Positions 37,402 to 55,577 of a stretch of 64,000 nucleotides of DNA are shown here, one piece after another. The stretch's first letter is position 1; each line of letters begins with the position of its first letter. The DNA lies in the NCBI GenBank assembly GCA_003152105.1, contig PLZJ01000003.1, positions 70,899 through 134,898 of the forward strand. The letters are read 5' to 3'. Both the position numbers and the translations under genes were made by a program. The stretch comes from Candidatus Levyibacteriota bacterium. GTDB lineage: Bacteria > Patescibacteriota > Microgenomatia > Levybacterales > UBA12049. A model generated the notes under the pieces. It was not told the DNA's origin and did no database searches. It was given only the letters and a program-made list of their open reading frames with translations.

Positions 37402-38142
37402 ATGAAACATATACCACATTTATTCGGATTTATCGCAAGTTTTATAGGTATTATAGTATTATTTTTACTGGTTGCCAAACCTGCCTATGGGACTTATACT
37501 CAACCTTCATTTCCTTCATGTTCAGCTCCTTCGGGTACAATAATCGCAAGTTATGCAACCGGAACGCACGCAATTGCAGGAGACCCAAATCTTCATACCG
37601 GTTCTGATACGGTATATCAAGAATCAGATATAACAGTTATGCAGTGTTTTTGTCCTGACGATTTAAGTGGAAAAGGTATTCAAACAAATTGGTGGGACGT
37701 TGCGGATTTATCATCTGATGACATACAAACACTAATTGGCAATGGATGGATAAATGAACCAAATGGATCTGATTGGGGACTCAATAACGCACCTTATCTT
37801 GCCATGAATAGCAATTTTGATTGTTCAGCCGAAACCCCAACACCTACACCAAGTGTGACGCCAGAAATAACGCCAACAGCAACGCCTTCGGCAACCCCAA
37901 CACCAAATCCAGGTAATGGATCAGGTGGTGGAGGATCGTCTTCAAGCTCATCTTCAAATTCAGGTGGTAGTTCAAGTACTAGCTCACAACCTGCAACCTC
38001 TCAACCTGCAGTACAAACGCTAGCTTCAACAGGTACATTTTTTGAAAACGCAATGAGTTATGTTTTTGGACTTGGCATATTATTTATACTTATGTCGCTT
38101 AACAATTATGTCAAAGAATCGTTCCAAATCAAAAAAAGCTAA
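37402..38142 (+). CDS. Sortase-substrate surface protein with LAXTG-type sorting signal (LASTG) and a Thr/Pro/Ser-rich linker
   Basis: Signal peptide, a Cys-containing domain, a TPTPTPSVTPEITPTATPSATPTPNPG...SSSSSSSNSGGSSSTSS linker, then LASTG, a hydrophobic helix and a basic tail. Confidence 0.7.
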   Translation: MKHIPHLFGFIASFIGIIVLFLLVAKPAYGTYTQPSFPSCSAPSGTIIASYATGTHAIAGDPNLHTGSDTVYQESDITVMQCFCPDDLSGKGIQTNWWDVADLSSDDIQTLIGNGWINEPNGSDWGLNNAPYLAMNSNFDCSAETPTPTPSVTPEITPTATPSATPTPNPGNGSGGGGSSSSSSSNSGGSSSTSSQPATSQPAVQTLASTGTFFENAMSYVFGLGILFILMSLNNYVKESFQIKKS

Positions 38143-38683
38143 AACCAATAGATTTTTGCCCTCTCTGTACACACTTATTCCGCTCATTATTGGCGTTTTT
38201 TTCCTTATATTGTATGCGTATTGGTATATTGCCTTTGGACCATATTCACTTCAGTTTAACAGCGTACCAAAAGCTTTTACGAGTTCTCTCTCAACCCCTG
38301 TTAGTATTTCGATTCCACGAGAAAAACTCACTCTATCCGTATCAGAAGCTGCTATAACCCATAACCAGTGGCAAGTAAGTCAAACTGGAGTTTCGCATCT
38401 TGCCATATCTGCAAATCCCGGCAATAAAGGAAATATTATAATTTATGGGCACAATAAAGACGAGTTATTTGGTAATATTCGAAATCTCCTTCCAACTGAC
38501 CAAATTATTATTCAAACAAAAGACAAAAAGCTTCACAAATATATAGTCTATGCAACTGACACCGTTTCACCAAATGACATAAGTGTCATTGCAAGCACAA
38601 ATAAAGAGGTTTTAACCCTCTATACCTGTACTGGATTTGCTGATTTAGAGAGGTTTATAGTAAAAGCTTATCCTGTAGTATAG
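38108..38683 (+). CDS. Sortase (class E-like)
   Basis: IYGHN catalytic His and TLYTC catalytic Cys (TLXTC). N-terminal membrane anchor. Start placed at MSKNRSK (38108). Confidence 0.8.
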   Translation: MSKNRSKSKKAKTNRFLPSLYTLIPLIIGVFFLILYAYWYIAFGPYSLQFNSVPKAFTSSLSTPVSISIPREKLTLSVSEAAITHNQWQVSQTGVSHLAISANPGNKGNIIIYGHNKDELFGNIRNLLPTDQIIIQTKDKKLHKYIVYATDTVSPNDISVIASTNKEVLTLYTCTGFADLERFIVKAYPVV

Positions 38684-38834
38684 GCACGAAAACTTCTGAA
38701 GCAATAAACCCATTGTTCAGCTTTACATTTCACTTCTTTTTTGGTATACTTATAAGATAACCCATAGAGATTTTTATCTTTATGTTTCTGCCTCTTTGGA
38801 TATTCCAATGTAACATAGGGTTATATTGCGAAGC

Positions 38835-38860
38835 GACGGGTACATTATCCGTCTTTTTTT
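38835..38860 (+). promoter_or_regulatory. Terminator-like hairpin GACGG-GTACATTAT-CCGTC plus T7 ending 3 nt before the start of the giant glycosyltransferase gene; possible attenuator or leader element
   Basis: Seen directly in sequence. Confidence 0.35.
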
Positions 38861-38863
38861 CAA

Positions 38864-41800
38864 ATGGACAGAAACATTTCTATTATTGTTCCAACATATA
38901 ATGAAGAAGGAAATATTGTTCCGCTATTAAATCGTATCCACAAAGCCGCAAAAACCGCAAAACTAACCTATGAAGTCATCGTTATTGATGACAATTCAAA
39001 AGACAAAACACTCAAAAAAGTTAAGGCACTAAAGTTATCTTATCCAGTCACTGCACCAAAGAAAAATGGTAAACCAGGTAAAGCATATTCGTTGCTTCAA
39101 GGCTTTTCACTTGCAAAATATGACACTATTTGCATGATTGATGCAGATTTACAATATCCACCTGAAGCAATACCACTCATGTTTGATCAAATCCAAGAAG
39201 GAGCAGATATTGTTGTGGCAAATAGAATTAAAGAAAATGCAGGACTAAAACGAAAAATAATCAGCAATACGTTTCGATTTGTATTTGGAAGATTACTACA
39301 TGGTTTCTCAGTAGACGTACAATCAGGCCTTAAAGTCTTTAGAAAAAGGGTGATTGAAGAACTTTCTCTTTCACCTACATCTGCATGGACACTTGATATG
39401 GAACTATTAGTAAAAGCACGAAACGCAGGCTTTGTCATTTCTTCATTTGACACCGAGTTTGAACAAAGACATGATGGTGATGCAAAAATAAATTTAACAA
39501 GAGCAACGTTTGAAATTTTAAAAAGTGCACTAGAACTTAAATTTCAAAGAACACAAGTTGTGCCATTTACCAGCGAAAAAGAAAAAGAAACGGGAAAAGG
39601 ATTTCACCACAAAGGAAAACAATATATTCATTATTCAAATCTCCCGCAAGAAGAAACAGCGTTTTTTAGACTATCGACAATCCAAATGCTTCTTATTTGT
39701 GACTTAGTACTGGTGCTTATCTTCTCACTACTTGTTAATTGGCACCTTACCTTGATTATTATTCTTGCATTCTTAACGCTTTTCTATTTTATTGATTTGT
39801 TTTTCAACTTATATTTAATATTACAAAGCTTATCAAAAGAAATTTCAATTGGCGTCACAGAGGAGGAACTTGCAACTCTAAAAGACAAAGATCTTCCGAT
39901 GTATACGATTTTATGTCCGCTGTACAAAGAGTGGAGAGTTGTACCGCAATTTATCTCTGCAATGAACAATCTAGTATACCCAAAAGACAAACTTCAAATT
40001 ATGCTGCTGCTTGAAGAAAATGACACAAAAACAATTGAAAAGATAAAAACATATGTACTTCCTGATATGTTTGAAATTGTCATTGTTCCAGATTCAAATC
40101 CAAAAACAAAACCAAAAGCACTCAATTACGGACTCCTCGTTGCAAAAGGGGATTATACCGTCATTTACGATGCAGAAGATATGCCAGATCCACTCCAACT
40201 TAGAAAAGCACTTATTGCATTTTCTAAACTTCCTAAAAAAGTCATCTGTATCCAAGCAAAACTTAATTTTTATAATCCAACCCACAATATTCTCACAAAG
40301 CTTTTCTCAGCTGAGTATGCACTTTGGTTTGATCTTGTACTACCAGGACTGCAGTCACTAAATGCGCCGATTCCACTTGGAGGAACTTCTAATCATTTTA
40401 AAACATCGGTCCTTCGAAGTCTTAATGGATGGGACGCGTTTAATGTAACTGAGGATTGTGATTTAGGAATACGACTTTCGAAAAAAGGCTATCAAACAGC
40501 AATTATTGACTCAACAACACTTGAGGAAGCAAATAGTAATATTTTTAACTGGTTTAATCAACGATCTCGTTGGATAAAAGGGTATATTCAAACCTACTTT
40601 GTGCACACAAGAGATCTTCGAACAACAATCATGTCAAAAGACCAGAAAAAGGTAGCACTCTTTAACATAATTGTAGGAGGCAAAATTGCCTCTATGTTTA
40701 TTAATCCGTTAATGTGGATTATTACTCTTTCATACTTTGCATTTCGACCAATCGTTGGTCCTGCTATTGAATCATTTTATCCTGCTCCCGTACTATACAT
40801 GGGAGTTGTTTGTATTGTTTTTGGTAACTTTTTGTATTTGTACTATTACATGCTTGCGTGCGCCAAAAGAGGGCAAGACAATTTAATTATCTATGCATTT
40901 TTAGTTCCAGTTTACTGGCTTACGATGAGTATTGCCTCAGTAAAGGCAGTCATAAGTATTATTTATAATCCACATTACTGGGCAAAAACAAAACACGGAT
41001 TATTCCTCGAAGAAGCAGAATCGCAAACTGAAAATGAGCAAATGTATGAAGAAACACTTGGCTACAAACAAAACTGGTACGCACCTTCTTTTGTCTATCA
41101 AAAAGCAAAAAATACATGGAAAAGTTCAACACATTTACAAATGGGAACGTTTTTTGCCTTATCGGCAACACTTGCTAATTTCTTAAACTTTTTTTATAAC
41201 GCATTCTTAGGTCGAGTTCTTTCGTTTGATGAATTTGGAACAATAGCACTGCTTAGTAATTTTCTCCTTATTCTAGGTATTTTTATCGAGTCTACCTCAG
41301 GTACTATTTCGCAAAAAATTGCCTACTTTTCTGCAAAAAAACGCCAAGATGCAGCGCTTACTTTTTATAACTATGTAGTAATGAGGATTATTATTCTCGC
41401 AAGTTCTGTCGCAATTCTATGGATGGTTTTTGCACCTTTGCTTGCATTGTTTTTCCACACACAAGGAACGCTCCCAATTATTGTATTTACTCCCGTTATT
41501 TTAATGGCGATGATTACGGCAGTAAACGCAGGGTTTTTACGAGGGAATATGGCGTTTGTCAGCGTTGGTATTATTACGCTTATTGAAGGACTTGTGAAGC
41601 TCTCTTCAATGTTTTTCTTTGTGTTTGAAAAACAACAATCGCTTGCTTACTTTGCAATACCACTTGGTATTTTATCGACCTTTATCTTGACATTAATACT
41701 CACAACCCGTCAACTTGTCAAACAAAAACCAACAACGATGAAAAATACAACTCATTTCCCTTGGAAGTTTTTTAGTTCTTATTTGTTTATTGGCGCCTCA

Positions 41801-43585
41801 ACAATCGCATTTCTTTCTTTAGATGTACTGCTTGTAAAACATTTCTTTTCGCCAAAAATTGCAGGAGAATATGCACTCCTTTCATTAATTGGAAAAATGA
41901 TTTTCTACTTTAATTACTTTTTCAATACACTCCTTGTTCCATTAACTAGTCGCTATGAGGGTCTCTATGGCAGTTCTACAAAGTTGTTTCGAAACATGAT
42001 GTTTCTAAGTGTTCTTTCCTCAGGAAGTATATTTCTTTTTGTCGGGCCACTTGGCTTTTTATTCTTACCAATTCTTTTTGGAAGTAAAGCAGTTGTAATA
42101 TTACCGTACGTTGTTTTATATAGCCTTGGTATTTTCCTCTTTAATCTTTCAAACAAAATTGCGGTATATCACATGTCAAGACACGATCACGTTTTTCCAG
42201 TTTCTATGTCATTTGCATCGCTATTAATGCTTTTGGGTATTTGGACATTTCATCAAAGTATTTATCAAGTTGTGTGGGTAATACTTGGTATTAATATATT
42301 TACCTTTCTACTTCTTCTTTCACTGCACTTTTTACAAGAAAAAGTTAAGTTTGTCATTTCAAATACTGTTGACTTTTTAGAACTTCTGCAACCACTCAAA
42401 AGTAGACGATCAAAAACTAATGTTGAAAAAAATATCCTAATATTTAACTGGAAAGACATTCGTCATGTGCATGCAGGAGGATCTGAAGTATATGTGCATG
42501 AACTTGCAAAACGATGGGTAAAAGACGGCTATTCAGTTACACTTTTTTGCGGAAATGATGGCAATTCACAAAGAAGAGAAACAATAGATGGGATTGAAAT
42601 AATACGTCGAGGCGGCTTTTATATGGTATATCTTTGGGCATTTTTATACTATATGTTCCATTTTAGAGGGAAATACGAAACGATAATTGACTGCGAAAAC
42701 GGTATCCCATTTTTTACACCACTTTTTGCGTTTTCAGAAAAGAAATTCTTACTCATACACCACATACACAAAGACGTGTATAAGTTTAAATTAAAACCAC
42801 CACTTTCTTGGATTGGCATGTATTTAGAAATGAGCCTAATGCCAAAAGTATATAGAAAAGTAAAGTTTATTACGGTTTCTCCTTCAACAAAAGAAGAATT
42901 ACTTGCTGCAAAATTAACACATATTGATCCTGTTATTGTTTACAACGGAGTGGATATTCAAACGTATACACCTGGTAAAAAAAGTATCGTACCAACCGTA
43001 CTTTATTTAGGAAGATTAGAAAAATACAAAAGTATTCATATTTTAATTGAATCAATGGAACATATTGCAAAAAAAGTACCAGCAGTAAAATTTGTTATCG
43101 CTGGAGAAGGAACAGAAAAATTTAAATTAGAACAACACGTTAAAAGATTACCTTTTAAAGCAAATATAGAATTTTTAGGAAAAGTATCTGAAGAAGAAAA
43201 AGCAAGACTCTACCAAAAAGCGTGGGTATTTGTAAATCCTTCATTTAAAGAAGGGTGGGGAATTACTGTTATTGAAGCAAATGCTTGTGAGACGCCTGTT
43301 GTTGCTTCAAATATTTCTGGGCTTCGAGATTCAGTTATTCATTTACAAACTGGACTTTTGGTTCCATATGGCAATATCAAAGCACTTTCAGATTCAGTTT
43401 TAAGACTACTTATTGATGATTCGCTCCGAAATGAACTTGGTAAAAATGGCCGTGAATGGGCAAAACTTTTTGAATGGAGATTTAGTGCGCGAAAAACGTT
43501 AAATATTATAGAAGAACGTGAACTTGAACCAGAAAAACCAATAAGTCATTTTACGAAAAATATTAGCTTATCAAGCTCGATATAA
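38864..43585 (+). CDS. 1573-aa multidomain glycosyltransferase: GT2 (DPM1/GtrB-like), TM helices, GT2 (processive, QxxRW), MOP/Wzx-like flippase domain, GT4
   Basis: aa 1-230: ISIIVPTYNEEGNI...VIVIDDNSKDKT. aa 340-700: DAED, TED and QRSRW motifs. aa 700-1180: about 12 TM helices with a Polysacc_synt-like start (LGRVLSFDEFGTIALLSNF). aa 1200-1573: GT4 with EGWGITVIEA (EX7E). Confidence 0.85.
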   Translation: MDRNISIIVPTYNEEGNIVPLLNRIHKAAKTAKLTYEVIVIDDNSKDKTLKKVKALKLSYPVTAPKKNGKPGKAYSLLQGFSLAKYDTICMIDADLQYPPEAIPLMFDQIQEGADIVVANRIKENAGLKRKIISNTFRFVFGRLLHGFSVDVQSGLKVFRKRVIEELSLSPTSAWTLDMELLVKARNAGFVISSFDTEFEQRHDGDAKINLTRATFEILKSALELKFQRTQVVPFTSEKEKETGKGFHHKGKQYIHYSNLPQEETAFFRLSTIQMLLICDLVLVLIFSLLVNWHLTLIIILAFLTLFYFIDLFFNLYLILQSLSKEISIGVTEEELATLKDKDLPMYTILCPLYKEWRVVPQFISAMNNLVYPKDKLQIMLLLEENDTKTIEKIKTYVLPDMFEIVIVPDSNPKTKPKALNYGLLVAKGDYTVIYDAEDMPDPLQLRKALIAFSKLPKKVICIQAKLNFYNPTHNILTKLFSAEYALWFDLVLPGLQSLNAPIPLGGTSNHFKTSVLRSLNGWDAFNVTEDCDLGIRLSKKGYQTAIIDSTTLEEANSNIFNWFNQRSRWIKGYIQTYFVHTRDLRTTIMSKDQKKVALFNIIVGGKIASMFINPLMWIITLSYFAFRPIVGPAIESFYPAPVLYMGVVCIVFGNFLYLYYYMLACAKRGQDNLIIYAFLVPVYWLTMSIASVKAVISIIYNPHYWAKTKHGLFLEEAESQTENEQMYEETLGYKQNWYAPSFVYQKAKNTWKSSTHLQMGTFFALSATLANFLNFFYNAFLGRVLSFDEFGTIALLSNFLLILGIFIESTSGTISQKIAYFSAKKRQDAALTFYNYVVMRIIILASSVAILWMVFAPLLALFFHTQGTLPIIVFTPVILMAMITAVNAGFLRGNMAFVSVGIITLIEGLVKLSSMFFFVFEKQQSLAYFAIPLGILSTFILTLILTTRQLVKQKPTTMKNTTHFPWKFFSSYLFIGASTIAFLSLDVLLVKHFFSPKIAGEYALLSLIGKMIFYFNYFFNTLLVPLTSRYEGLYGSSTKLFRNMMFLSVLSSGSIFLFVGPLGFLFLPILFGSKAVVILPYVVLYSLGIFLFNLSNKIAVYHMSRHDHVFPVSMSFASLLMLLGIWTFHQSIYQVVWVILGINIFTFLLLLSLHFLQEKVKFVISNTVDFLELLQPLKSRRSKTNVEKNILIFNWKDIRHVHAGGSEVYVHELAKRWVKDGYSVTLFCGNDGNSQRRETIDGIEIIRRGGFYMVYLWAFLYYMFHFRGKYETIIDCENGIPFFTPLFAFSEKKFLLIHHIHKDVYKFKLKPPLSWIGMYLEMSLMPKVYRKVKFITVSPSTKEELLAAKLTHIDPVIVYNGVDIQTYTPGKKSIVPTVLYLGRLEKYKSIHILIESMEHIAKKVPAVKFVIAGEGTEKFKLEQHVKRLPFKANIEFLGKVSEEEKARLYQKAWVFVNPSFKEGWGITVIEANACETPVVASNISGLRDSVIHLQTGLLVPYGNIKALSDSVLRLLIDDSLRNELGKNGREWAKLFEWRFSARKTLNIIEERELEPEKPISHFTKNISLSSSI

Positions 43586-43587
43586 GT

Positions 43588-44685: not shown

Positions 44686-44817
44686 AAAAACTATTTTTTA
44701 TTACAAGTCTATTAGCAACCATATATTTAGGTAAAAATCTATCGAAAAGATATGGCTTATTAATTGCTCAAAAGCAAGATTTAAAGGCTAAATTTACTAG
44801 GAATAGGAAAGGAGATG

Positions 44818-44826
44818 TGGTATAAT
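44818..44826 (+). promoter_or_regulatory. Extended -10 element TGGTATAAT ending 8 nt before the ATG at 44835; leaderless or near-leaderless transcript likely
   Basis: No Shine-Dalgarno between the -10 and the ATG. Confidence 0.4.
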
Positions 44827-44834
44827 ACCTATAT

Positions 44835-46898
44835 ATGAAAGTTAATTTCTATAAGCCATTAATAACGGGGAATGAGCTCACATATATTGCTGATATTATT
44901 GAAAATAATAAGGCAATGCTTGGTGATGGGGAGTATACACATAAAGCACAAGCATTCTTAGCAAAAAGATATAAAATAAATAAAGTACTGCTAACTACCT
45001 CTGGTACTACAGCTTTAGAACTTGCACTTCGACTTTGTAATTTAAAACCAGGAGACGAAGTCATCGCACCTTCATTTACATTTTCTTCCTCAATAAACGC
45101 AGTACTACTCCTCCATGAAGTAAAAGTAGTATTTGCTGACATTGATAAAAAAACACTCAATATTGATCCAAAAGACGTAAAACGAAAAATCACTAAAAAA
45201 ACGAAAGCAATAATGGTCGTACACTACGCTGGGGTCGCAACTGATATGGATGCGATCATGCAGATTGCCAAAAAGCGCAAGATAAAAGTTATTGAAGATG
45301 CAGCTCAAGGTATAGAAGCAAAATGGAAAAATAAATATCTTGGCACAATAGGAGACTTTGGATGTATGTCTTTTCATGCTACGAAAAACATAACAATGGG
45401 AGAGGGGGGAGCGCTTTTTATAAATACGAAAAACAAACAAATACTTGAACAAGCAGAAGTACTTCGAGAAAAAGGAACAAACAGACATAAATTCTTGCGC
45501 GGAGAAGTTGATAAATATACATGGGTATCAATTGGATCAAGCTATTTGCCTTCAGACCTTCTTAGTGCATTTCTGTTTGCACAACTTGAGCAAATTGAGT
45601 CAATTACAAAACAAAGACTTAGTGTTTATAATTATTACTATAATAGTTTGTATCAGTACGAAGAGGAAGGCTTAATACAGCTTCCTAAAATTCCATCCTA
45701 TGCAACGCATAATGGCCACGTATTTTTTATACTATGTAAAAACACAAAAGACAGAGATGAGGTAATAACATATCTTAGAAAAAATGGCATTACGGCTCCG
45801 TTTCATTACATACCACTGCATTCTTCTCCTCAAGGAAAAAAATTAGGGTATAAAGCATCAGATTTACCTATTACAGAAAAGGCAAGCGAGACGCTCCTCA
45901 GACTTCCTATGTATTCAGGAATGCCTACAGAAGAACAAGATTATGTCGTACATCACGTAAAAACAATTTTAGACAAACTATATCACGTAACTAAGCCAAC
46001 AGTAACAATTGGCATTCCAGCTTATAATGAAAGCGCCAACATAAAACATCTACTTACGCAAATAACAAAGCAGAAACAACTTACCTTTACTCTTGAAAAA
46101 ATTATTGTTGTTTCAGACGCAAGTTCGGATGACACTGTTAAAAAAGCAAGTAGTTTGCCTGACAAAAGAATTAAAGTTATTGATCACAAAACAAGAACTG
46201 GCCAAAATAAAATACAAAATGAAATTTTCAGTTTATCTAAATCTGCTATTTGTATTATTTTAGAAGCAGACACCAGAATTCCTAACACCAACTATATAGC
46301 AACACTTATTGCCCCTATGACAAAAAATAAAGATGTGTCCCTTGTACAAGGAAATCCAGTACCTCTTCCTGCGAAAACATTTATAGGAAGTACACTTTCA
46401 CTTCATTCTCAAATATTTCATGCCTCATCTGCAAATAAACCAGAAATTGCAGAATGGATTGCAAATGGTAGAGGAGGAAGAGCATTCGCAAAAAAGCTTT
46501 ATACAAAACTTCGATGGCCACAAAATGTATCAGAAGATGATTATGGTTTGCTTTGGAGTAAAACTAACGGTTTCACAACTGTTTTTGAAAAAAACGCAAA
46601 GTCATATTATAAATGCTCAGAAACACTTTCAGACTACTTGTTAGAAATTAAAAAAGCAAAATCTATTGGCGGCATGATAGAAACATATTTTGCTCCAACA
46701 TTGACAGAAAATGTATTTTCTAGGCCTAGAAATATGAGACTAAAAATGGGAGCAACATTTCTTATTAAAAATCCGCTGTATTTTGCCTCATATATTGGAG
46801 TTAAGCTATATGCAAATAGTAATGTTAAAAAAATGAAATTTACTGATTTTTGGCCACAAATTAGTTCAACAAAAATTCTTAAAAACTATGAAAAATAA
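44835..46898 (+). CDS. DegT/DnrJ/EryC1/StrS-family PLP-dependent sugar aminotransferase fused to a C-terminal GT2 domain
   Basis: aa 1-385: aminotransferase fold with the PLP-Lys context SFHATKN. aa about 390-687: VTIGIPAYNESANI...VVSDASSDDT GT2 domain. Confidence 0.8.
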   Translation: MKVNFYKPLITGNELTYIADIIENNKAMLGDGEYTHKAQAFLAKRYKINKVLLTTSGTTALELALRLCNLKPGDEVIAPSFTFSSSINAVLLLHEVKVVFADIDKKTLNIDPKDVKRKITKKTKAIMVVHYAGVATDMDAIMQIAKKRKIKVIEDAAQGIEAKWKNKYLGTIGDFGCMSFHATKNITMGEGGALFINTKNKQILEQAEVLREKGTNRHKFLRGEVDKYTWVSIGSSYLPSDLLSAFLFAQLEQIESITKQRLSVYNYYYNSLYQYEEEGLIQLPKIPSYATHNGHVFFILCKNTKDRDEVITYLRKNGITAPFHYIPLHSSPQGKKLGYKASDLPITEKASETLLRLPMYSGMPTEEQDYVVHHVKTILDKLYHVTKPTVTIGIPAYNESANIKHLLTQITKQKQLTFTLEKIIVVSDASSDDTVKKASSLPDKRIKVIDHKTRTGQNKIQNEIFSLSKSAICIILEADTRIPNTNYIATLIAPMTKNKDVSLVQGNPVPLPAKTFIGSTLSLHSQIFHASSANKPEIAEWIANGRGGRAFAKKLYTKLRWPQNVSEDDYGLLWSKTNGFTTVFEKNAKSYYKCSETLSDYLLEIKKAKSIGGMIETYFAPTLTENVFSRPRNMRLKMGATFLIKNPLYFASYIGVKLYANSNVKKMKFTDFWPQISSTKILKNYEK

Positions 46899-47847
46899 TA
46901 CCACAACAAAAAGTATGAAAAATACCAAACAAAAACACGTGTTAAAAACGCTTTCAATTGGGATTCCTGCACATAATGAAGAAGCAACACTTCCTTCATT
47001 AATCAGCTCAATTGCACAACAAAAACATACCTTGTTTACACTTGAAAATGTCTATATCTTAAATGATGCAAGTACTGACAATACTGTAGAACTTGCTAAT
47101 TCACTTTCTAAAAAATACCCATTTGTGCATCTTGTAAATGATGGACAACGACTTGGAAAAGCAGCAAGACTTAACGCATTATATAAAGCAAATAAAAGTG
47201 ATATTTTAGTTTGTTTTGACGGAGATATACAACTTACCTCAAATAGGGTTCTTGAAGAAATGGTTAAAGCACTTGATGACAAAGATGTTGCACTTGCTAC
47301 CACAAACAAACTTCCTCATACACCAATAAATTTTTTTGAAAAACTTATATATACCTTAGATATGCTTTGGTATGATATTAGACTTACACTAAATGGAGGA
47401 GATAATGTATATAATGTTGCAGCTTCAGGAATTGGCATTAATGGAACATTTGCAAAAACACTCAAGTTGCCAGCAGGAACTAGTTTTGATGCAGAAATAC
47501 TTTTTATCAGCGCACTACGAAAATATAAAAAAACAGTATTTTTAAAAGATGTTCCAATATATTTCCACCTTCCAGCAAACCTTGCTGATTACATATCACA
47601 ATCAAGTCGCGTCGCAAGTCCAGAAACAAGAAAAATCATAAATAGCGCAAACGAAATTTATGTAGTACCAAACTCGCTTAAAATAAAAGCAATAATTAAA
47701 TCATTTGCAAAACATCCAATATTAACACCTCTTTCTTTTGCTCTCTTATATTACGTAAGACGAATGAAAAAGAAACATGGAAAAGTTTCAAAAACCCCTT
47801 ATTGGGATACTGCAGCTTCTACAAAAAGAGCTTTTACCGCTCAGTAA
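46888..47847 (+). CDS. GT2 glycosyltransferase, paralog of the GT2 domain of the upstream fusion
   Basis: LSIGIPAHNEEATL...ILNDASTDNT aligns with the C-terminal domain of 44835-46898. Confidence 0.75.
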   Translation: MKNNTTTKSMKNTKQKHVLKTLSIGIPAHNEEATLPSLISSIAQQKHTLFTLENVYILNDASTDNTVELANSLSKKYPFVHLVNDGQRLGKAARLNALYKANKSDILVCFDGDIQLTSNRVLEEMVKALDDKDVALATTNKLPHTPINFFEKLIYTLDMLWYDIRLTLNGGDNVYNVAASGIGINGTFAKTLKLPAGTSFDAEILFISALRKYKKTVFLKDVPIYFHLPANLADYISQSSRVASPETRKIINSANEIYVVPNSLKIKAIIKSFAKHPILTPLSFALLYYVRRMKKKHGKVSKTPYWDTAASTKRAFTAQ

Positions 47848-47860
47848 TAATATTATCATT

Positions 47861-49411
47861 ATGAATTTATTTAAGCATTTTTCTTTTACCATACTACCTT
47901 ACTTATGTATCATACTAATTGGTCTTATCCTATATACGGCAACTATAAAAGGAGCAGTAGGAAATCCCAATGGACAAATACATCAACTTGGACTAGATCA
48001 ATCTGGTAAAGCTTTTGAACTGTCACCTGAGCGAGATCGTTATCTCTTAACATATGCCATGGCAACTACTGGGACAACGTCAATTCCAAAAGCAGTTGCT
48101 GATGCTAATTATTCTGATATTGGGTATTACGAGGGTAAATTCTATATTCTTTTCGCTCCAGGTATTTCAGTACTTGCGCTGCCTTTTTATCTGATTGGTG
48201 CACATTTTAATGTAGCACAAGTAGGAACATTTGCTGTTATTCCTCTTTTTACTATTTTAAGTCTTTTATTTTTATATAAAATTTCAAGAAAGGTATTCAA
48301 ATTACCGGTATGGTCTTCACTTATAGCACCACTTATTTTTGGATTTTCATCAACCTCCTGGAGCTATGCAACAACGCTTTATCAACATCAAGTAACAACA
48401 TTTTTGATCGTCTCTTCTTTTTATGCAGTGTATTTGTATAGACAAAAATATAAAAATGGATGGCTTCTTTCCTCGTATGTTTGGTTAGCTTTTGGTGTAG
48501 CCTGTTCAATTGATTATCCAAATCTTTTGCTTATGGGACCAGTTGTAATCTATTTACTTATCTCACAATTTTCAATTAAAAAAGTAAGAAATTCATTATC
48601 TTTTTCATTCCAAAAAACACTTTTTACTGTAATCTTTTTCTTAGCAATAGTGCTCGTTAATGCATGGTATAACCAAACACATTTTGGCAGTTGGAAACGG
48701 GTAAGCGGTGATTTAGTAAATTATAAAACTATACTTGAACAGCATTTATTAACAAGTAAAAAAGGGACAGCAAAACTTGCAACAATCGCGAAAAACAAAA
48801 GTGATACTGTTTCATTTTTCTCAGAAGATAATATTCCCTTTAGCTTTTATACCTTAACAACTAGCTTAGACAGGGGACTACTATTATATAGCCCAATCTT
48901 TGTCATTGCGTTTTTGGGCATATTAGCAATGCTTTCAGATCTCTCAACTGAAACTATAATATTATTTGGACTTATTGGCATAGATGTCTTTTTATACAGT
49001 AGTTGGGGAGATCCATGGGGAGGATGGGCATTTGGACCACGATATCTTATCCCTGCAATGGCAATACTTTCCTTATTTGCGGCAAAATGGGTAACTCTTG
49101 CAAAACACAATTTGATCCGAAGAATAATTACTTTTATACTTATGACTTACTCAATTGCTATTGCGCTTCTTGGGGTACTCACCTCAAATGCAATTCCTCC
49201 AAAAGTAGAAGCAGATTATTTGCATACTGGCTATAACTTTTTACAAAATGAAAAATACTTATTTCATAATCAAAGTAGTAGCTTTTTCTACAACACATTT
49301 TTACATCAAAGCGTAACTCTACCAATGTATTTTGCCTATATCTACATAGGCCTTCTTGTTATAACAGTAACTGTTTTATTCGTATTACCAATTTTTACAA
49401 AACATGAATAA
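47861..49411 (+). CDS. Polytopic membrane protein, probable GT-C-fold glycosyltransferase (PMT/ArnT-like)
   Basis: About 12 TM helices with extracytoplasmic loops. Start moved to the ATG at 47861, after the upstream stop at 47847. Confidence 0.55.
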   Translation: MNLFKHFSFTILPYLCIILIGLILYTATIKGAVGNPNGQIHQLGLDQSGKAFELSPERDRYLLTYAMATTGTTSIPKAVADANYSDIGYYEGKFYILFAPGISVLALPFYLIGAHFNVAQVGTFAVIPLFTILSLLFLYKISRKVFKLPVWSSLIAPLIFGFSSTSWSYATTLYQHQVTTFLIVSSFYAVYLYRQKYKNGWLLSSYVWLAFGVACSIDYPNLLLMGPVVIYLLISQFSIKKVRNSLSFSFQKTLFTVIFFLAIVLVNAWYNQTHFGSWKRVSGDLVNYKTILEQHLLTSKKGTAKLATIAKNKSDTVSFFSEDNIPFSFYTLTTSLDRGLLLYSPIFVIAFLGILAMLSDLSTETIILFGLIGIDVFLYSSWGDPWGGWAFGPRYLIPAMAILSLFAAKWVTLAKHNLIRRIITFILMTYSIAIALLGVLTSNAIPPKVEADYLHTGYNFLQNEKYLFHNQSSSFFYNTFLHQSVTLPMYFAYIYIGLLVITVTVLFVLPIFTKHE

Positions 49412-50990
49412 TATAACAATCTCATTACCAAAAATACCTTTTGTCGAAAACGTACTAACGAAACTCGAATTTGAAAAAATAATCGTTATACTTTCGTCAT
49501 TAATTTCACTGGCTTCAATAATCTATTACACTTTGCAAAATGAAATTCTCTCTTATGGAGATGCAGAATCACACATAAACATTGCAAAACGTGTTGTCGA
49601 CTCGTTGACGCCTGGTTTTGCACAACTTGGGGGCGTGTGGCTTCCATTACCACATTTACTTATGGTTCCTCTTGTTTGGTTTGATCCATTATGGAGAAGC
49701 GGACTTGGTGGATCAATAATTTCTGGTATTGCGTTTGTCGTATCCTGTTTATTTTTATATAAATTAACACTCTTTATTACAAAAAATAAAAACGCTTCCT
49801 TTTTTGCATTTCTAGTTTTTGCAACAAATCCAAATATACTCTATATGCAATCAACGCCAATGTCAGAACTAGTACTGCTTGTTTTCTTTTTATTGTCAAC
49901 GTATTATTTTATGAAATATATACAAAGCAAAGATTCAGTTTTCTACCTTGTCATTGCAGCATTCTTTGGTTTCTGTGCAGCGTTATCTCGATATGACGGA
50001 TGGTCACTTGTTTTATTTGAAGCGTTTTTACTTATCGTTTATCTTATTTCTAAAAAGGCATCATTTAGCAAAATACAGGGAAGAGTTATTATGTTTTCAA
50101 CACTCGCATTCTTTGCCATCGCTCTTTGGCTTGGATGGTGTTATTTAATTTTAGGTAATGCATTTTACTTTAGTACAAGCATCTATTCTGCGTCATCCCA
50201 ACAACATAACTGGTTAGGTAGAGGAGAACTTCCTGCGTATCATAATATCTTTGTTTCATTCCTTTATTACTTTGTCACTTCAATGGAAATAACTGGCGTA
50301 TTACTTTTTTTAACAACGGTAATTGCTATATTTCTCTTTATAAGAAATAAGGAAAAGAGAATACTTTTCTATGTATTATCACTTCTTTTTGTTCCGTTTT
50401 TATTCAACTGGGCAACACTCTTTTTAGGTGAATCTGTTATTTTCATACAATCATTAACGCCCATTTCTTTTGAATGGAGACTTTTCAATGTCAGATATGG
50501 ACTCATGATGATGCCTTATGTTGCGTTTATCTTAGGATATCTCTATTTCAAAGCAAACGCCAAGGGTAAAGCATTTCTTGTTGGGTTAACCATTTTTCAA
50601 CTCGCACTTTTCTTTGTAGGATATCAAAAAGTATTAACACTCTCTGATGCAACGGTCGGCCTTTCAGCATCTAGAAATCCAGATGCACAACTTTGGCTTA
50701 CAAAACATTACACAAAAGGACTTGTGCTACTTGATGATTATGCAAGAACAGTAAGTATTATAAAAAGTGGTATTCCAATGCAAGAAGTTATAAACGTTGG
50801 TACAAAACCATATTATACTGACTCTTTTATTACTCCTGAGAAATATGCAACATGGATCATATTACAGAGAAATGATGATGTATGGAACCACTTATACGAA
50901 ACACAACAAGAACAAAATCTTCTTTACACTTATTTTAATAAGGTATATACATCAAAAGAAATTTTGATATTTAAACGAATTGGCAGTTAA
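49404..50990 (+). CDS. GT-C-fold glycosyltransferase, GT39/GT83 (PMT/ArnT)-like
   Basis: First extracytoplasmic loop motif LSYGDAESHINIAKRV (the DE...Y/H...IA..M-type motif of PMT/ArnT). Multi-TM. ATGA overlap with the upstream gene. Confidence 0.65.
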   Translation: MNNITISLPKIPFVENVLTKLEFEKIIVILSSLISLASIIYYTLQNEILSYGDAESHINIAKRVVDSLTPGFAQLGGVWLPLPHLLMVPLVWFDPLWRSGLGGSIISGIAFVVSCLFLYKLTLFITKNKNASFFAFLVFATNPNILYMQSTPMSELVLLVFFLLSTYYFMKYIQSKDSVFYLVIAAFFGFCAALSRYDGWSLVLFEAFLLIVYLISKKASFSKIQGRVIMFSTLAFFAIALWLGWCYLILGNAFYFSTSIYSASSQQHNWLGRGELPAYHNIFVSFLYYFVTSMEITGVLLFLTTVIAIFLFIRNKEKRILFYVLSLLFVPFLFNWATLFLGESVIFIQSLTPISFEWRLFNVRYGLMMMPYVAFILGYLYFKANAKGKAFLVGLTIFQLALFFVGYQKVLTLSDATVGLSASRNPDAQLWLTKHYTKGLVLLDDYARTVSIIKSGIPMQEVINVGTKPYYTDSFITPEKYATWIILQRNDDVWNHLYETQQEQNLLYTYFNKVYTSKEILIFKRIGS

Positions 50991-51027
50991 TATAACTACT
51001 AGATATAATAAAGAGAGAACATGACTT

Positions 51028-52311
51028 ATGAAACTAACACATTTTCTAACGACTAAGTTTTTTCTTCTTACCTTGCTTACGCTATTTCTTTTTTGTGTTG
51101 GTGTTTTTGGAACAAACCTAGTACTTGGTACAGCAAAACCAACTAATGCTACATTTTGGAATTATCAATGTATTGATACAATGAAATCTTCTCGAGACAT
51201 GGCAAGATCAATGATGGGAAGCACAGGTGCGCAAAATCAAATAACAACACAGATAGTTGCCATTAAAAATCTTGGAGCAAACTGTGTCGCCATAGATACA
51301 CCATATGATTCAGAATTTTTACCAATACTTACTCTTTGGGTTACTACGGCAAGACAATATAACTTGCATATTTGGTTCAGAGGAAACTTTTCTTCCTGGG
51401 AAGGATGGTTTGATTATCCTACAAATATGACAACTCTTCAAAACTTACAAGACACGAAATCCTTTATCTTACGTAACCCACAACTGTTTCAAGATGGAGA
51501 TATTTTTACTGAAGCACCAGAAGCAGAAAATGGGGGACCATTTTTAAATAAAGAATCTTCTTCTATTGCGCCATATCGTCAGTTTTTAATTGATGAATAT
51601 CAAAACGAGAATGATGCGTTTTCTCAAATTCATAAATCAATAGTTACAAATTGGTTTTCAATGAGTGGGGGATGGGCAAAAGCAGTACTTGATAAACCAA
51701 CGATAGATGCAATCGGCGACAACGTAACCATAGATCACTATGTTAAATCACCAAGTGAAATGTGTGACTATATTTCATATTTCAACAATACCTTCCATAG
51801 TAAAGTAACGCTTGGAGAATTTGGTGCCCCAATACCAGATATTAATGGAGACATGACAGATGCGCAGCAAGCTGATTTTGTTTCCAAATTATTTACATGT
51901 TTATATCATGACAAGAATGATATTTCTGGAATTAATTATTGGGATATTATGTATGGCTCAACAGCCCTGCTTTCAGATAATGGTGCTGCAAAACCAGTTG
52001 ATCAGGTTATTAAAAATTACTATCTGCCTTATGTGGTAAACGGGAAAGTTAATAATGTTTTGGGTGAAGGAATTGCAAATGCTACGGTTACCTCACAGGA
52101 CGGATTAAATAGTACACAAACAAATCAAAATGGAGATTTTGAATTGCCAGTTGCTAGAAACACACAAAGCATATCTGTTACTTCGCCAAATTACTTTAAC
52201 CAAGAAGCAAGCGTAATAAGTAATAATGCAGCGCCAATGCAAATAACGATGAAACGTCAAACAAATGACTTTTGGTATAATTTAGACCAATTTTTTCATC
52301 ATCTTTTTTAA
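51028..52311 (+). CDS. Secreted glycoside-hydrolase-like protein with a C-terminal carboxypeptidase-regulatory-like (CarbopepD_reg) domain
   Basis: Signal anchor. (beta/alpha)-barrel-like Trp/Glu-rich core. C-terminal VVNGKVNNVLGEGIANATVT...NGDFELPVA. Confidence 0.45.
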   Translation: MKLTHFLTTKFFLLTLLTLFLFCVGVFGTNLVLGTAKPTNATFWNYQCIDTMKSSRDMARSMMGSTGAQNQITTQIVAIKNLGANCVAIDTPYDSEFLPILTLWVTTARQYNLHIWFRGNFSSWEGWFDYPTNMTTLQNLQDTKSFILRNPQLFQDGDIFTEAPEAENGGPFLNKESSSIAPYRQFLIDEYQNENDAFSQIHKSIVTNWFSMSGGWAKAVLDKPTIDAIGDNVTIDHYVKSPSEMCDYISYFNNTFHSKVTLGEFGAPIPDINGDMTDAQQADFVSKLFTCLYHDKNDISGINYWDIMYGSTALLSDNGAAKPVDQVIKNYYLPYVVNGKVNNVLGEGIANATVTSQDGLNSTQTNQNGDFELPVARNTQSISVTSPNYFNQEASVISNNAAPMQITMKRQTNDFWYNLDQFFHHLF

Positions 52312-52736: not shown

Positions 52737-52752
52737 TTAGACAATCATTAAG

Positions 52753-55575: not shown

Positions 55576-55577
55576 AG

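What the first reader, a model, noticed from the sequence alone, without database searches (positions are those of the whole stretch)
37402..52311. 15-kb envelope glycosylation locus combining a sortase and LAXTG substrate with lipid-linked sugar machinery
The locus contains, in order, a surface protein with a TP/S-rich linker and LASTG signal, a class-E-like sortase, a 1573-aa GT2-GT2-flippase-GT4 fusion, a GT4, a DegT aminotransferase-GT2 fusion, a paralogous GT2 and two GT-C (PMT/ArnT-like) membrane transferases. It ends with a secreted glycosidase-like protein. This mirrors the Arn pathway: ArnB-like aminotransferase, ArnC-like polyprenyl-P GT2, ArnT-like GT-C. It also resembles actinobacterial Ppm/Pmt protein O-mannosylation. 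Here the likely acceptor is the adjacent Thr/Pro-rich surface protein or a wall glycopolymer rather than lipid A. From gene content, the locus is a candidate polyprenyl-phosphate amino-sugar glycosylation system for a sortase-anchored glycoprotein.
Basis: partly seen in the sequence, partly recalled or inferred. Interest (0 to 1): 0.8.

Follow-up and report, generated by a model that had tools for sequence, protein, structure and literature searches.

The report
Patescibacterial surface-glycan locus with dedicated sortase
This 15-kb gene cluster from an uncultured ultrasmall (Patescibacteria/Microgenomates) bacterium is one version of a conserved, undescribed machine that most likely builds and decorates a cell-surface sugar polymer, and in about a quarter of related genomes it sits next to a small wall-anchored protein and the sortase that anchors it.

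Summary
The gene content is real and nearly as described.

**Confirmed parts**
- An LASTG surface protein and a sortase.
- A 1573-aa fusion of four parts: a DPMS/GtrB/ArnC-like GT2, a cellulose-synthase-like GT2 with TED and QRSRW motifs, a Wzx-like membrane domain and a GT4.
- A second GT4, an aminotransferase–GT2 fusion and a paralogous GT2.
- Two GT-C enzymes and a secreted, weakly glycosidase-like protein.

**Corrections**
- The aminotransferase is WecE-type, acting on dTDP-4-amino-4,6-dideoxyhexose. It is not ArnB.
- The ArnC-like GT2 is the N-terminus of the giant protein, not the GT2 fused to the aminotransferase.
- The sortase class cannot be assigned.

**Comparison with 86 related loci**
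- The conserved core is the giant fusion, then variable GT2/GT4/sugar-tailoring genes, then GT-C1, GT-C2 and the GH-like gene.
- The WecE module occurs in only 7 loci, so the amino sugar is a strain-specific decoration.
- The LAxTG protein and sortase abut the cluster in 17 loci including the window. They lie upstream in some, downstream in others and inverted once.

**Best reading:** a synthase plus a three-component extracytoplasmic glycosylation system for an envelope glycopolymer, with a wall-anchored partner protein. Glycosylation of that protein is possible but unproven. I rate this a new variant of known kinds.

The parts
37308..37336 (+). Promoter-like site (TTGACA-17-TATAAT, 12 of 12) upstream of the LAxTG gene
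   Evidence: This is a consensus match only. The total number of promoter-like sites in the region is not above the shuffled expectation.
37402..38142 (+). Small secreted LASTG protein. It has a signal peptide, a conserved ~110-aa four-cysteine domain (residues ~31-142), a Thr/Pro- then Gly/Ser-rich linker, LASTG, a TM helix and a basic tail.
38108..38683 (+). Sortase with an N-terminal membrane anchor. The His (YGHN), Cys (TLYTC) and Arg (ERF) motifs are present.
   Evidence: Pfam PF04203 at 3.3e-25. It is below every NCBIfam class cut-off. Motifs are and the called start.
38835..38853 (+). Terminator-like hairpin (8-bp stem plus a T run) between the sortase gene and the giant gene
   Evidence: Consensus scan only.
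38864..39643 (+). Giant protein residues 1-260: polyprenyl-phosphate sugar synthase-type GT2 with a DAD motif at residue 93
   Evidence: PDB sequence hits: Pyrococcus DPMS 5mlz at 7e-28, GtrB 5ekp at 3e-18 and ArnC 9bhc at 2e-15. NCBIfam hits include PgfS, ArnC, AglJ and the dolichyl-P hexose transferase.
39644..41053 (+). Giant protein residues 261-730: membrane-embedded processive GT2 of the cellulose-synthase type, with TED at 529, QRSRW at 566 and flanking TM helices
   Evidence: Pfam Glyco_tranf_2_3 and Glyco_trans_2_3. BcsA structures 7lby and 9fmv match at 7e-10 over residues 287-630.
41054..42433 (+). Giant protein residues 731-1190: polytopic membrane domain (9 or more hydrophobic helices), probably a Wzx/MOP-like flippase
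   Evidence: No Pfam hit at E<=5. A stand-alone PF01943 Polysacc_synt protein of locus L088 matches window 41531-42274 at 26% identity, E 3e-14. L006 has a shorter giant protein without this domain plus a separate Polysacc_synt gene.
42434..43585 (+). Giant protein residues 1191-1573: GT4 (GT-B fold, retaining type) with an EX7E motif at 1463
   Evidence: Glycos_transf_1 at 7e-45 and Glyco_transf_4 at 7e-16.
43588..44685 (+). Stand-alone GT4 glycosyltransferase
   Evidence: Glycos_transf_1 at 7e-22. Orthologs at 58-62% identity lie in WecE-containing loci.
44682..44825 (+). 47-aa ORF called as a gene in the source record; function unknown
   Evidence: No family match.
44835..45980 (+). WecE-type PLP aminotransferase domain (dTDP-4-amino-4,6-dideoxyhexose synthesis) with the SFHATK lysine present
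   Evidence: NF008687 at 516 bits (cut-off 375) and TIGR02379 at 459.6 bits (cut-off 434.85). ArnB scores 195 bits against a cut-off of 631.
45981..46898 (+). GT2 domain fused to the aminotransferase. No TM helix; its acceptor is unknown.
   Evidence: Glycos_transf_2 at 7e-16. PDB hits are weak and cover the N-terminal half only: DPMS at 1e-4, GtrB at 4e-3 and ArnC at 0.04. The fusion is rare, with 10 clusters.
46888..47847 (+). Paralogous stand-alone GT2 with a DGD motif
   Evidence: Glycos_transf_2 at 9e-23. It is 28% identical to the fused GT2, E 2e-23. Related loci carry 1-5 copies of this family.
47861..49411 (+). GT-C1: GT-C-fold membrane glycosyltransferase with invariant ELSPER, DYPN and DPWGGW motifs
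   Evidence: 435 homologs, nearly all from Patescibacteria. Model pLDDT is 90. Foldseek matches only GT-C enzymes.
49404..50990 (+). GT-C2: PMT_2-type GT-C glycosyltransferase with an invariant YGDxESH motif after TM1
   Evidence: PMT_2 at 27.9 bits against a cut-off of 26.1. 18 of 44 family members hit PMT_2, with a best E of 1e-8.
51028..52311 (+). Secreted or membrane-anchored protein with a conserved ~320-aa N-domain and a C-terminal CarboxypepD_reg beta-sandwich. The N-domain is possibly a GH clan-A-like barrel, with invariant E125, E165, E167 and E264 in GEFG.
   Evidence: It is fused to GT-C2 in three related loci, giving products of 921-983 aa. L004 has a GH5 domain fused to GT-C2 instead. 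The glycosidase assignment is weak.
52750..52783 (+). Strong terminator-like hairpin (13-bp stem plus a T run) that probably ends the transcription unit
   Evidence: Consensus scan only.

Best explanation
The locus is one strain-specific version of a gene cluster conserved across Patescibacteria, mainly Microgenomates. The cluster assembles and decorates an envelope glycopolymer or glycoconjugate.

**Shown by sequence, structure and synteny**
- The giant protein joins four units in one polypeptide: a DPMS/GtrB/ArnC-type polyprenyl-phosphate sugar synthase, a cellulose-synthase-type processive GT2, a Wzx-like membrane domain and a GT4.
- Two GT-C transferases and a secreted GH-like protein always follow it.
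- A variable block of GT2, GT4 and sugar-tailoring genes lies between the giant gene and the GT-C genes.

**Inferred mechanism**
- The processive GT2 makes and exports a beta-linked backbone.
- The N-terminal GT2 loads a sugar onto polyprenyl phosphate, and the Wzx-like domain flips that lipid-linked donor.
- GT-C1 and GT-C2 transfer the sugar to acceptors outside the membrane. This is three-component logic fused onto a synthase.
- The GH-like protein trims or processes the product. In some genomes it is physically fused to GT-C2.
- In this genome the variable block makes a dTDP-4-amino-4,6-dideoxyhexose through the WecE domain and passes it directly to the fused GT2. That gives a strain-specific amino-sugar decoration.
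- The LAxTG protein is cleaved by its dedicated sortase and anchored to the wall. It acts as a partner of the glycan system, either as its acceptor or anchor or as a glycan-binding organiser.
For: - **Domain identities:**
- **GT-C folds:** for GT-C1; for GT-C2.
- **Flippase-like domain:**
- **Conservation:** 312 stretches in species-representative genomes encode a GT-C1 relative. GT-C1 and GT-C2 are adjacent in 59 of 83 loci, the GH-like gene is present in 56, and the giant protein's synthase domain in 49. Most of the remaining loci are truncated contigs.
- **GT-C2 and GH coupling:** GT-C2 fusions to the GH-like, GH5 or GH8 domains occur in relatives.
- **Variable tailoring block:** a WecE ortholog occurs in 7 loci. 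Other loci carry other aminotransferases, Rml-type genes with a methyltransferase, or deacetylases.
- **Sortase and LAxTG pair at the cluster edge:** 17 loci including the window carry it, upstream of the giant gene or downstream of the GH-like gene, and once inverted. A sortase lies downstream in 11 of 49 loci where that end is visible. By my rough estimate, chance would give about 1% for one or two sortases per ~1-Mb genome.
- **Flippase precedent:** a MATE/MOP-type flippase in a three-component system is described in PMC11127046.
Against: - No glycan, lipid-linked donor or enzyme activity has been observed, so every step of the mechanism is inferred.
- No RmlA or RmlB is in the 64-kb window to supply the WecE substrate. 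The rest of the 1.14-Mb scaffold was not examined.
- The locus has no initiating phosphoglycosyltransferase, no Wzy and no LCP ligase. How the product is primed and attached is unknown.
- The flippase and glycosidase assignments rest on weak or indirect similarity.
- The sortase pair is absent from about three quarters of related loci with visible ends. It also occurs without the cluster in at least one genome (L090).
- A terminator-like hairpin separates the sortase gene from the giant gene.
Confidence: 0.55

Rival explanations
1. The locus is a dedicated protein O-glycosylation system. An Arn-like route (aminotransferase, then a polyprenyl-P GT2, then a GT-C) puts an amino sugar on the Thr/Pro/Ser-rich linker of the LASTG protein, which the sortase then anchors. 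The model parallels Pgf in Streptococcus mutans and Ppm1/Pmt in actinobacteria.
For: - The LAxTG protein and sortase are adjacent to the cluster in 17 loci including the window.
- Most family members have disordered linkers rich in Ser/Thr. S/T is at least 30% in 30 of 54.
- GT-C2 is PMT_2-type.
- A polyprenyl-P-type GT2 is present.
- There is precedent. PgfS (GT-A) with the GT-C enzymes PgfM1 and PgfM2 glycosylates wall-anchored adhesins encoded in the same cluster (PMC12041528).
- The weak top PDB hits of the two small GT2s are DPMS, GtrB and ArnC.
- Relatives L004, L006 and L088 carry a Polysacc_deac_1 gene, the family to which ArnD belongs according to my own knowledge.
Against: - The aminotransferase is WecE-type, not ArnB.
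- WecE occurs in only 7 of 83 loci while both GT-Cs are core. The amino sugar is therefore not the conserved GT-C donor.
- The core includes a processive cellulose-synthase-like GT2, GT4s, up to five GT2 paralogs and a GH-like protein. That is far more than protein O-glycosylation needs.
- 10 of 54 family members have linkers of 25 aa or fewer, and some have few Ser/Thr.
- L019 and L072 carry a different cargo domain at the same position.
- Most related loci lack the pair.
Confidence: 0.18
2. The adjacency is neighbourhood without mechanism. The sortase and its small substrate form an independent housekeeping cassette that tends to sit among envelope-biogenesis genes. The glycan cluster makes a wall or capsule polymer that has nothing to do with the protein.
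For: - Sortase is near-ubiquitous in Microgenomates (PMC6744442).
- The pair forms its own apparent transcription unit, with a promoter-like site at 37308 and a terminator-like hairpin at 38835.
- The pair stands alone in L090.
- About three quarters of clusters with visible ends lack it.
- The cargo domain can differ.
Against: - The pair abuts the cluster boundary directly in 17 loci including the window. Cluster proteins in those loci are only 30-60% identical.
- The pair occupies two different positions and once lies in inverted orientation. Linkage has therefore survived rearrangements.
- Two of three contexts sampled starting from the LAxTG family lead back to GT-C1, GT-C2 and the GH-like gene.
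Confidence: 0.22

Closest known systems
Three-component extracytoplasmic glycosylation systems: GtrB/GtrA/Gtr*, CsbB/GtcA/YfhO, and the polyprenyl-P-ribose synthase/MATE flippase/GT136 system (PMC11127046, PMC8035078)
   Same: Both have a GT2 that resembles polyprenyl-phosphate sugar synthases, a candidate flippase and GT-C transferases acting outside the membrane.
   Different: Here the synthase-type GT2 and the candidate flippase are fused with a processive cellulose-synthase-like GT2 and a GT4 into one 1573-aa protein. There are two unrelated GT-Cs plus a conserved GH-like partner. Neither the donor nor the acceptor is known.
Streptococcus mutans Pgf system: PgfS, PgfE, PgfM1 and PgfM2 with the wall-anchored adhesins Cnm, CnaB and CbpA (PMC12041528)
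   Same: Both have a GT-A polyprenyl-P-type enzyme, two GT-C enzymes and sortase-type wall-anchored proteins with Ser/Thr-rich regions in one gene cluster. The N-terminal GT2 hits the PgfS model at 79 bits.
   Different: That score is far below the PgfS cut-off of 500. The GT-Cs here are not YfhO-type: one is PMT_2-type and the other belongs to an unnamed family. The substrate is a tiny four-cysteine domain protein rather than a collagen-binding adhesin. The locus also carries a processive synthase and a dedicated sortase.
Actinomyces oris GspA-LcpA-SrtA (PMC6381275)
   Same: Both involve a sortase-anchored surface protein genetically linked to glycopolymer attachment, a housekeeping-type sortase and a single linked substrate.
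   Different: In A. oris an LCP phosphotransferase adds the glycan. No LCP gene is in this locus or window. The candidate transferases here are GT-C enzymes.
Arn pathway: ArnB, ArnA, ArnC, ArnD, ArnE/F and ArnT (lipid A modification with L-Ara4N)
   Same: Both have a sugar aminotransferase, an ArnC-like GT2 (9bhc at 2e-15) and a GT-C fold that matches ArnT among others.
   Different: The aminotransferase is WecE-type and acts on a dTDP-6-deoxyhexose. There is no ArnA-like formyltransferase or dehydrogenase and no ArnD in the window. The ArnC-like domain is not the one fused to the aminotransferase. There is no lipid A in a monoderm-type organism.
Synthase-dependent exopolysaccharide systems: BcsA/BcsZ cellulose and PgaC/PgaB PNAG
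   Same: Both have a membrane GT2 with D, D, TED and QxxRW motifs and flanking TM helices, plus an associated glycoside-hydrolase-like protein. Some relatives also carry polysaccharide deacetylases.
   Different: There is no BcsB, PilZ or PgaA/D equivalent. The synthase is fused to three other enzymes and is always paired with two GT-Cs. The product is unknown.
Enterobacterial common antigen WecE (dTDP-Fuc4N synthesis)
   Same: The aminotransferase domain passes the curated WecE model cut-offs.
   Different: It is fused to a GT2, which is a rare architecture with 10 clusters. No WecD acetyltransferase or WecF is present. No RmlA or RmlB is in the window.

Membership tests
Sortase superfamily (PF04203) | Sortase domain with the catalytic His, the Cys in TLxTC and the Arg | tested here: met
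   PF04203 at 3.3e-25, 88.7 bits against a cut-off of 26.6. YGHN, TLYTC and ERF motifs are present.
Class E sortase | Score above the NCBIfam class_E_sortase cut-off (160 bits) | tested here: not met
   46.8 bits. Class D models score higher (58.1 and 55.5 bits) but are also below their cut-offs.
Class E sortase | LAxTG-type sorting motif in cognate substrates | tested here: met
   The window has LASTG. LA[STNAGF]TG predominates across the family, with LPxTG in a minority.
WecE / dTDP-4-amino-4,6-dideoxyhexose transaminase | Score above the curated equivalog and subfamily cut-offs; PLP-binding lysine | tested here: met
   NF008687 at 516 bits (cut-off 375) and TIGR02379 at 459.6 bits (cut-off 434.85). 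The SFHATK motif is present.
WecE / dTDP-4-amino-4,6-dideoxyhexose transaminase | Supply of dTDP-4-keto-6-deoxyglucose by RmlA and RmlB | tested here: inconclusive
   No RmlA, RmlB or RmlC homolog is in the 64-kb window. The rest of the genome could not be searched. Relatives L004 and L089 have RmlB-like or RmlA/B/C-like genes in the cluster.
Arn pathway | ArnB-type UDP-Ara4N aminotransferase | tested here: not met
   NF008658 at 195 bits against a cut-off of 631.
Arn pathway | ArnA (dehydrogenase and formyltransferase) and ArnD (deformylase) | tested here: not met
   No such domains are in the locus or window.
Arn pathway | ArnC-type undecaprenyl-phosphate GT2 and ArnT-type GT-C | tested here: inconclusive
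   Giant residues 4-169 match ArnC structures at 2e-15, but DPMS matches better at 7e-28. The NCBIfam ArnC score is 69.6 bits against a cut-off of 529. GT-C1 matches ArnT no better than it matches OST, PMT or Emb.
Three-component glycosylation system | Polyprenyl-phosphate sugar synthase (GT2 of DPMS/GtrB type) | tested here: met
   Met at sequence level only: (5mlz at 7e-28, 5ekp at 3e-18). Enzyme activity was not tested.
Three-component glycosylation system | Flippase for the lipid-linked monosaccharide | tested here: inconclusive
   The membrane domain (residues 731-1190) has no Pfam hit. It is homologous to a PF01943-annotated protein at E 3e-14.
Three-component glycosylation system | GT-C fold transferase with acidic residues in the first extracytoplasmic loop | tested here: met
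   GT-C1 fold with ELSPER after TM1. GT-C2 hits PMT_2 and has YGDxESH after TM1.
Protein O-mannosyltransferase system (Ppm1/Pmt, GT39) | PMT (PF02366) domain architecture with MIR or a loop-5 domain; a protein acceptor | tested here: not met
   The window GT-Cs do not hit PF02366. Only 2 of 44 GT-C2 relatives do, and weakly. The acceptor cannot be tested here.
Processive beta-glycan synthase (cellulose synthase-like GT2) | D, D, TED and QxxRW motifs with TM helices flanking the GT-A domain | tested here: met
   DAED, TED at 529, QRSRW at 566 and TM helices at 273-291 and 602-693. BcsA matches at 7e-10.
Processive beta-glycan synthase (cellulose synthase-like GT2) | Polymer product | not testable with these tools
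   No biochemical data exist.
Glycoside hydrolase clan GH-A (for 51028-52311) | (beta/alpha)8 barrel with two catalytic Glu residues on strands 4 and 7 | tested here: inconclusive
   Glyco_hydro_cc in 8 of 46 members (best E 0.0037), GH10 in 2 and GH35 in 1. E165/E167 and E264 (GEFG) are invariant. There is no PDB sequence hit. hhalign against the GH5 domain of L004 is not significant.

The most novel reading that the evidence does not exclude
The small four-cysteine LAxTG protein is the covalent handle of the glycopolymer, giving a proteoglycan-like wall anchor. In one version the GT-C enzymes build or attach the polymer on the protein, and the dedicated sortase then links the conjugate to peptidoglycan. 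That would replace the LCP ligases of Gram-positive bacteria. In the other version the sortase uses the free amine of the 4-amino-6-deoxyhexose in the glycan as its nucleophile. Either would be a new way of attaching surface polymers in the Candidate Phyla Radiation.
Probability: 0.08. Interest if true: 0.85.

Novelty: new variant of a known kind. Interest (0 to 1): 0.55.

Why it matters
- **Gap it addresses.** From my own knowledge, Patescibacteria make up a large part of bacterial diversity, most are uncultured, and the composition of their envelope is essentially unknown.
- **What the cluster offers.** It has relatives in up to about 300 species-representative genomes. It is a concrete candidate for the machinery that makes a major surface glycan of Microgenomates.
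- **Parts to work with.** It supplies defined parts for heterologous study: a four-enzyme fusion, two GT-C families (one with no Pfam match), a GH-like partner, and a family of about 330 small wall-anchored proteins (clusters at 50% identity) with no Pfam match and no close relative in the PDB.
- **Diversity.** The variable sugar-tailoring block suggests serotype-like surface diversity, which bears on episymbiont–host recognition and on phage pressure.
- **Caveat.** Each building block is of a known kind, and no function has been shown.

Tried and rejected
- **PDB sequence searches.** GT-C1, GT-C2 and the GH-like protein, searched as single sequences and as profiles, gave nothing useful.
- **Relaxed Pfam scans.** At E<=5 the giant protein's membrane domain, the LAxTG N-domain and GT-C1 gave no family.
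- **hhalign comparisons.** The GH-like family against the GH5 domain of L004, and GT-C1 against GT-C2, were not significant. I therefore cannot claim that the GH-like protein is GH5 or that the two GT-Cs are paralogs.
- **NCBIfam scan.** The scan of the GH-like family hit only the C-terminal beta-sandwich.
- **Structure prediction.** The afdb50 fold library was unavailable.
- **Rml genes.** RmlA, RmlB and RmlC were not found in the window.
- **Literature.** Searches found no description of this cluster. The library is limited, so this does not prove that none exists.
- **Rejected readings.**
  - 'ArnB-like' for the aminotransferase and 'class E' as a family assignment for the sortase.
  - GH18 as part of the system, because no related locus has it.
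  - A mobile-element origin. A XerC/D-like recombinase lies next to the locus, but the synteny is chromosomal and widely conserved.

Full report
**Source and setting.** The window is part of a 1.14-Mb metagenomic scaffold (ENA ERZ28653421, WOOD18-1 scaffold_5) with about 35% G+C. Nearest homologs of several locus proteins carry names such as Candidatus Roizmanbacteria, Levybacteria, Woesebacteria, Gottesmanbacteria and 'Patescibacteria group'. The organism is therefore most likely a member of the Microgenomates branch of the Candidate Phyla Radiation.

**Checking the observation.**
- The source record's gene calls put the sortase start at 38108 and the first GT-C start at 47861. They also add a 47-aa ORF at 44682-44825.
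- Eight of the ten junctions from the LASTG gene to the GH-like gene span -35 to +37 nt. The exceptions are 126 nt between GH18 and the LASTG gene and 180 nt between the sortase and the giant gene.
- A perfect sigma-70 consensus lies at 37308-37336. Terminator-like hairpins lie at 38835-38853 and 52750-52783. These are consensus matches only.

**What each gene is.**
- *LAxTG protein (37402-38142).* It has a signal peptide, a conserved domain, a Thr/Pro- then Gly/Ser-rich linker, LASTG, a hydrophobic helix and a basic tail. This is the only sorting signal in the 64-kb window.
- *Sortase (38108-38683).* It is a clear sortase (PF04203, 3e-25) with His, Cys and Arg motifs. It falls below the NCBIfam cut-off of every sortase class; the best-scoring models are class D, followed by class E.
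- *Giant protein (1573 aa), four units.*
  - Residues 4-225 resemble polyprenyl-phosphate sugar synthases: Pyrococcus DPMS 5mlz at 7e-28, GtrB 5ekp at 3e-18 and ArnC 9bhc at 2e-15.
  - Residues 287-630 resemble BcsA (7e-10). They carry TED (529) and QRSRW (566) between TM helices.
  - Residues 731-1190 are polytopic with no Pfam match even at E<=5. A stand-alone PF01943 (Polysacc_synt) protein from related locus L088 aligns to them at E 3e-14. Locus L006 has a giant protein that lacks this segment and a separate Polysacc_synt gene.
  - Residues 1191-1573 are a GT4 with EX7E.
- *Second GT4 (43588-44685).* Confirmed by Pfam.
- *Aminotransferase–GT2 fusion (687 aa).* The aminotransferase domain passes the curated WecE cut-offs (516 > 375; 459.6 > 434.85) and fails the ArnB cut-off (195 < 631). 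The fused GT2 and the following 319-aa GT2 are paralogs (28% identity, E 2e-23). Both lack TM helices. Both give only weak, N-terminal-half hits to DPMS, GtrB and ArnC.
- *GT-C1 (47861-49411).* It has no Pfam hit. Its AlphaFold model (pLDDT 90.1, pTM 0.92) matches only GT-C enzymes in the PDB: AglB, STT3, ArnT, Pmt4, EmbA/B, AftA/B and ALG9. Probability is 1.0, E is 1e-5 to 1e-2, and TM-scores are up to 0.5. The fold is GT-C, but no family can be named.
- *GT-C2 (49404-50990).* It passes PMT_2 narrowly (27.9 against 26.1). 18 of 44 relatives hit PMT_2. YGDxESH is invariant after TM1.
- *GH-like protein (51028-52311).* It has a C-terminal CarboxypepD_reg beta-sandwich. Its conserved N-domain has invariant glutamates, including one in GEFG. 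Evidence for a glycosidase is weak: Glyco_hydro_cc in 8 of 46 relatives (best E 0.0037), GH10 in 2 and GH35 in 1. There are no PDB sequence hits.

**Related loci.** I collected 86 non-redundant related loci by three routes:
- fusion homologs of the aminotransferase–GT2 protein (P0002-P0010);
- a scan of species-representative genomes with a GT-C1 alignment, which found 312 stretches, of which 80 were fetched;
- homologs of the LAxTG protein.

tblastn synteny shows a conserved core. The giant fusion comes first, then a variable block of GT2 paralogs (1-5 copies), GT4s and sugar-tailoring genes, and then GT-C1, GT-C2 and the GH-like gene.

| Feature | Loci (of 83) |
|---|---|
| GT-C1 and GT-C2 adjacent | 59 |
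| GH-like gene present | 56 |
| Giant protein's synthase domain present | 49 |
| WecE ortholog at 55% identity or more | 7 |

- Most loci that lack a core feature are truncated contigs.
- In three loci the GH-like protein is fused to GT-C2, giving products of 921-983 aa. L004 has a GH5 domain fused to GT-C2, and L002 has a PMT::GH8 fusion.
- Loci without WecE carry unrelated DegT-type enzymes, RmlA/B/C-like genes with a methyltransferase (L089), polysaccharide deacetylases (L004, L006, L088) or none of these.
- The amino-sugar chemistry of the window is therefore a strain-level variant, not the core function.
- One MAG carries two copies of the cluster (L036 and L064).

**The sortase pair.**
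- *Where it sits.* Homologs of the LAxTG protein's N-domain (34-51% identity) with an adjacent sortase abut the cluster in several places.
  - They lie upstream of the giant gene in the window, L031, L035, L046 and L069.
  - They lie downstream of the GH-like gene in L004, L006, L013, L039, L041, L073, L084, L085, L087, L088 and L089.
  - They lie downstream and inverted in L071.
- *How often.* Of 49 loci with at least 1.8 kb visible after the GH-like gene, 11 have a sortase there. Of 11 loci with both ends visible, 3 have the pair. My rough estimate of chance adjacency, for one or two sortases per ~1-Mb genome, is about 1%.
- *Exceptions.* L019 and L072 carry a different cargo domain plus FN3, with the same QVLG...LAATG end, at the same position. 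A distant family member (L090) has the pair without the cluster.
- *The family.* It comprises 68 clusters at 90% identity and 329 representatives at E<=1e-3 among 1.84 billion.
  - It has four invariant cysteines and no Pfam match.
  - Linkers vary widely: median length is 42 aa, S/T is at least 30% in 30 of 54, length is 25 aa or less in 10 of 54, and some contain FN3 or PKD inserts.

**Interpretation.**
- *Core logic.* The core reads as a synthase-dependent glycan system onto which a three-component extracytoplasmic glycosylation system has been fused. The parts are a polyprenyl-P sugar synthase, a flippase-like domain and GT-Cs, as reviewed or demonstrated in PMC11127046 and PMC8035078. A GH-like processing partner resembles BcsZ-type partners of synthases; that comparison is from my own knowledge.
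- *Variable block.* It supplies strain-specific sugars. Fusion of WecE to a GT2 suggests direct hand-over of the amino sugar. This is an inference.
- *Sortase pair.* It is a recurrent accessory. Its linkage survives rearrangement, which argues for a functional tie. Its absence from most loci argues against it being the obligatory acceptor.
- *Precedents.* Wall-anchored glycoproteins linked to their glycosylation genes are known. Examples are S. mutans Pgf with Cnm (PMC12041528) and A. oris GspA/LcpA/SrtA (PMC6381275).
Its general idea of a lipid-linked donor plus GT-C transfer outside the membrane stands.

**Limits.**
- Nothing here shows an activity, a donor, an acceptor or a product.
- No RmlA or RmlB is in the window. 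The rest of the scaffold could not be read.
- The locus has no initiating phosphoglycosyltransferase, no Wzy and no LCP.
- The flippase and glycosidase assignments are weak.
- Many record titles in the genome collection ('uncultured Gammaproteobacteria') are evidently wrong for these contigs. Taxon counts therefore rest on the better-labelled records.

**Verdict.**
- The locus is a new variant built from known kinds of parts. It belongs to a widespread but, as far as I could find, undescribed Patescibacteria cluster.
- Sortase ubiquity in Microgenomates is already noted in PMC6744442.
- I score interest at 0.55.

Noticed in passing
window 35749-37275 (+): A GH18 protein (PF00704 at 8e-37, with a weak EndoS-type TIM-barrel hit) has a ~90-aa cytoplasmic N-terminus and one TM helix. 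It lies directly upstream of the LAxTG gene. None of the 86 related loci has a homolog next to the cluster, so it is probably not part of the system.
   Followed up: partly
window 34742-35725 (-): A XerC/XerD-type tyrosine recombinase (Phage_integrase at 6e-44) borders the locus. Given the conserved chromosomal synteny elsewhere, it is more likely housekeeping than a sign of a mobile element.
   Followed up: no
window 30000-34000: G+C rises to 0.42-0.43 here against 0.32-0.38 elsewhere. ORFs 31246-32484 and 32496-33110 have no Pfam match. An F420-0:gamma-glutamyl ligase-like gene follows at 33389-34183.
   Followed up: no
window 52482-52736 (+): A small Transgly_assoc (GlsB/YeaQ/YmgE-type) membrane protein is called in the source record. 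It lies between the GH-like gene and the strong terminator-like hairpin at 52750-52783, so it may be co-transcribed with the locus.
   Followed up: no
window 53897-57893 (-): A ZnuABC-type metal ABC transporter (two ABC-3 permeases, an ATPase and a ZnuA binding protein) with a Fur-family regulator lies immediately downstream of the locus.
   Followed up: no
L019:15469-16569 and L072:16646-17776: Alternative sortase substrates (366-376 aa) carry an unrelated N-domain plus an FN3 domain. They have the same GQVLG...LAATG C-terminal end and occupy the slot between the GH-like gene and the sortase. The slot tolerates different cargo.
   Followed up: partly
L002:5089-8903 and L002:12084-16750: This relative has an extra processive-type GT2 (424 aa), a PMT::GH8 fusion (837 aa), five GT2 paralogs and a 340-aa protein with no Pfam match. 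It is a much expanded variable block.
   Followed up: no
L036 and L064 (both from MAG SRP286056_co2_73): Two separate copies of the GT-C1, GT-C2 and GH-like cluster occur on two contigs assigned to one MAG. This suggests paralogous surface-glycan loci in a single genome.
   Followed up: no
L008-L087 record titles: Many contigs that carry this clearly Patescibacteria-type cluster are titled 'uncultured Gammaproteobacteria bacterium' in third-party assemblies. These titles look like taxonomic mislabels.
   Followed up: no
L070:2455-4035: The GT-C2 homolog of a Candidatus Woesebacteria contig contains two in-frame stop codons over the coordinates I derived. This could be a pseudogene, a sequencing error or my own coordinate error.
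   Followed up: no
window 60733-61227 (-): A 164-aa ORF gives weak hits to Pollen_Ole_e_1 (4e-5) and to the AglB_L1 peripheral domain (7e-4).
   Followed up: no
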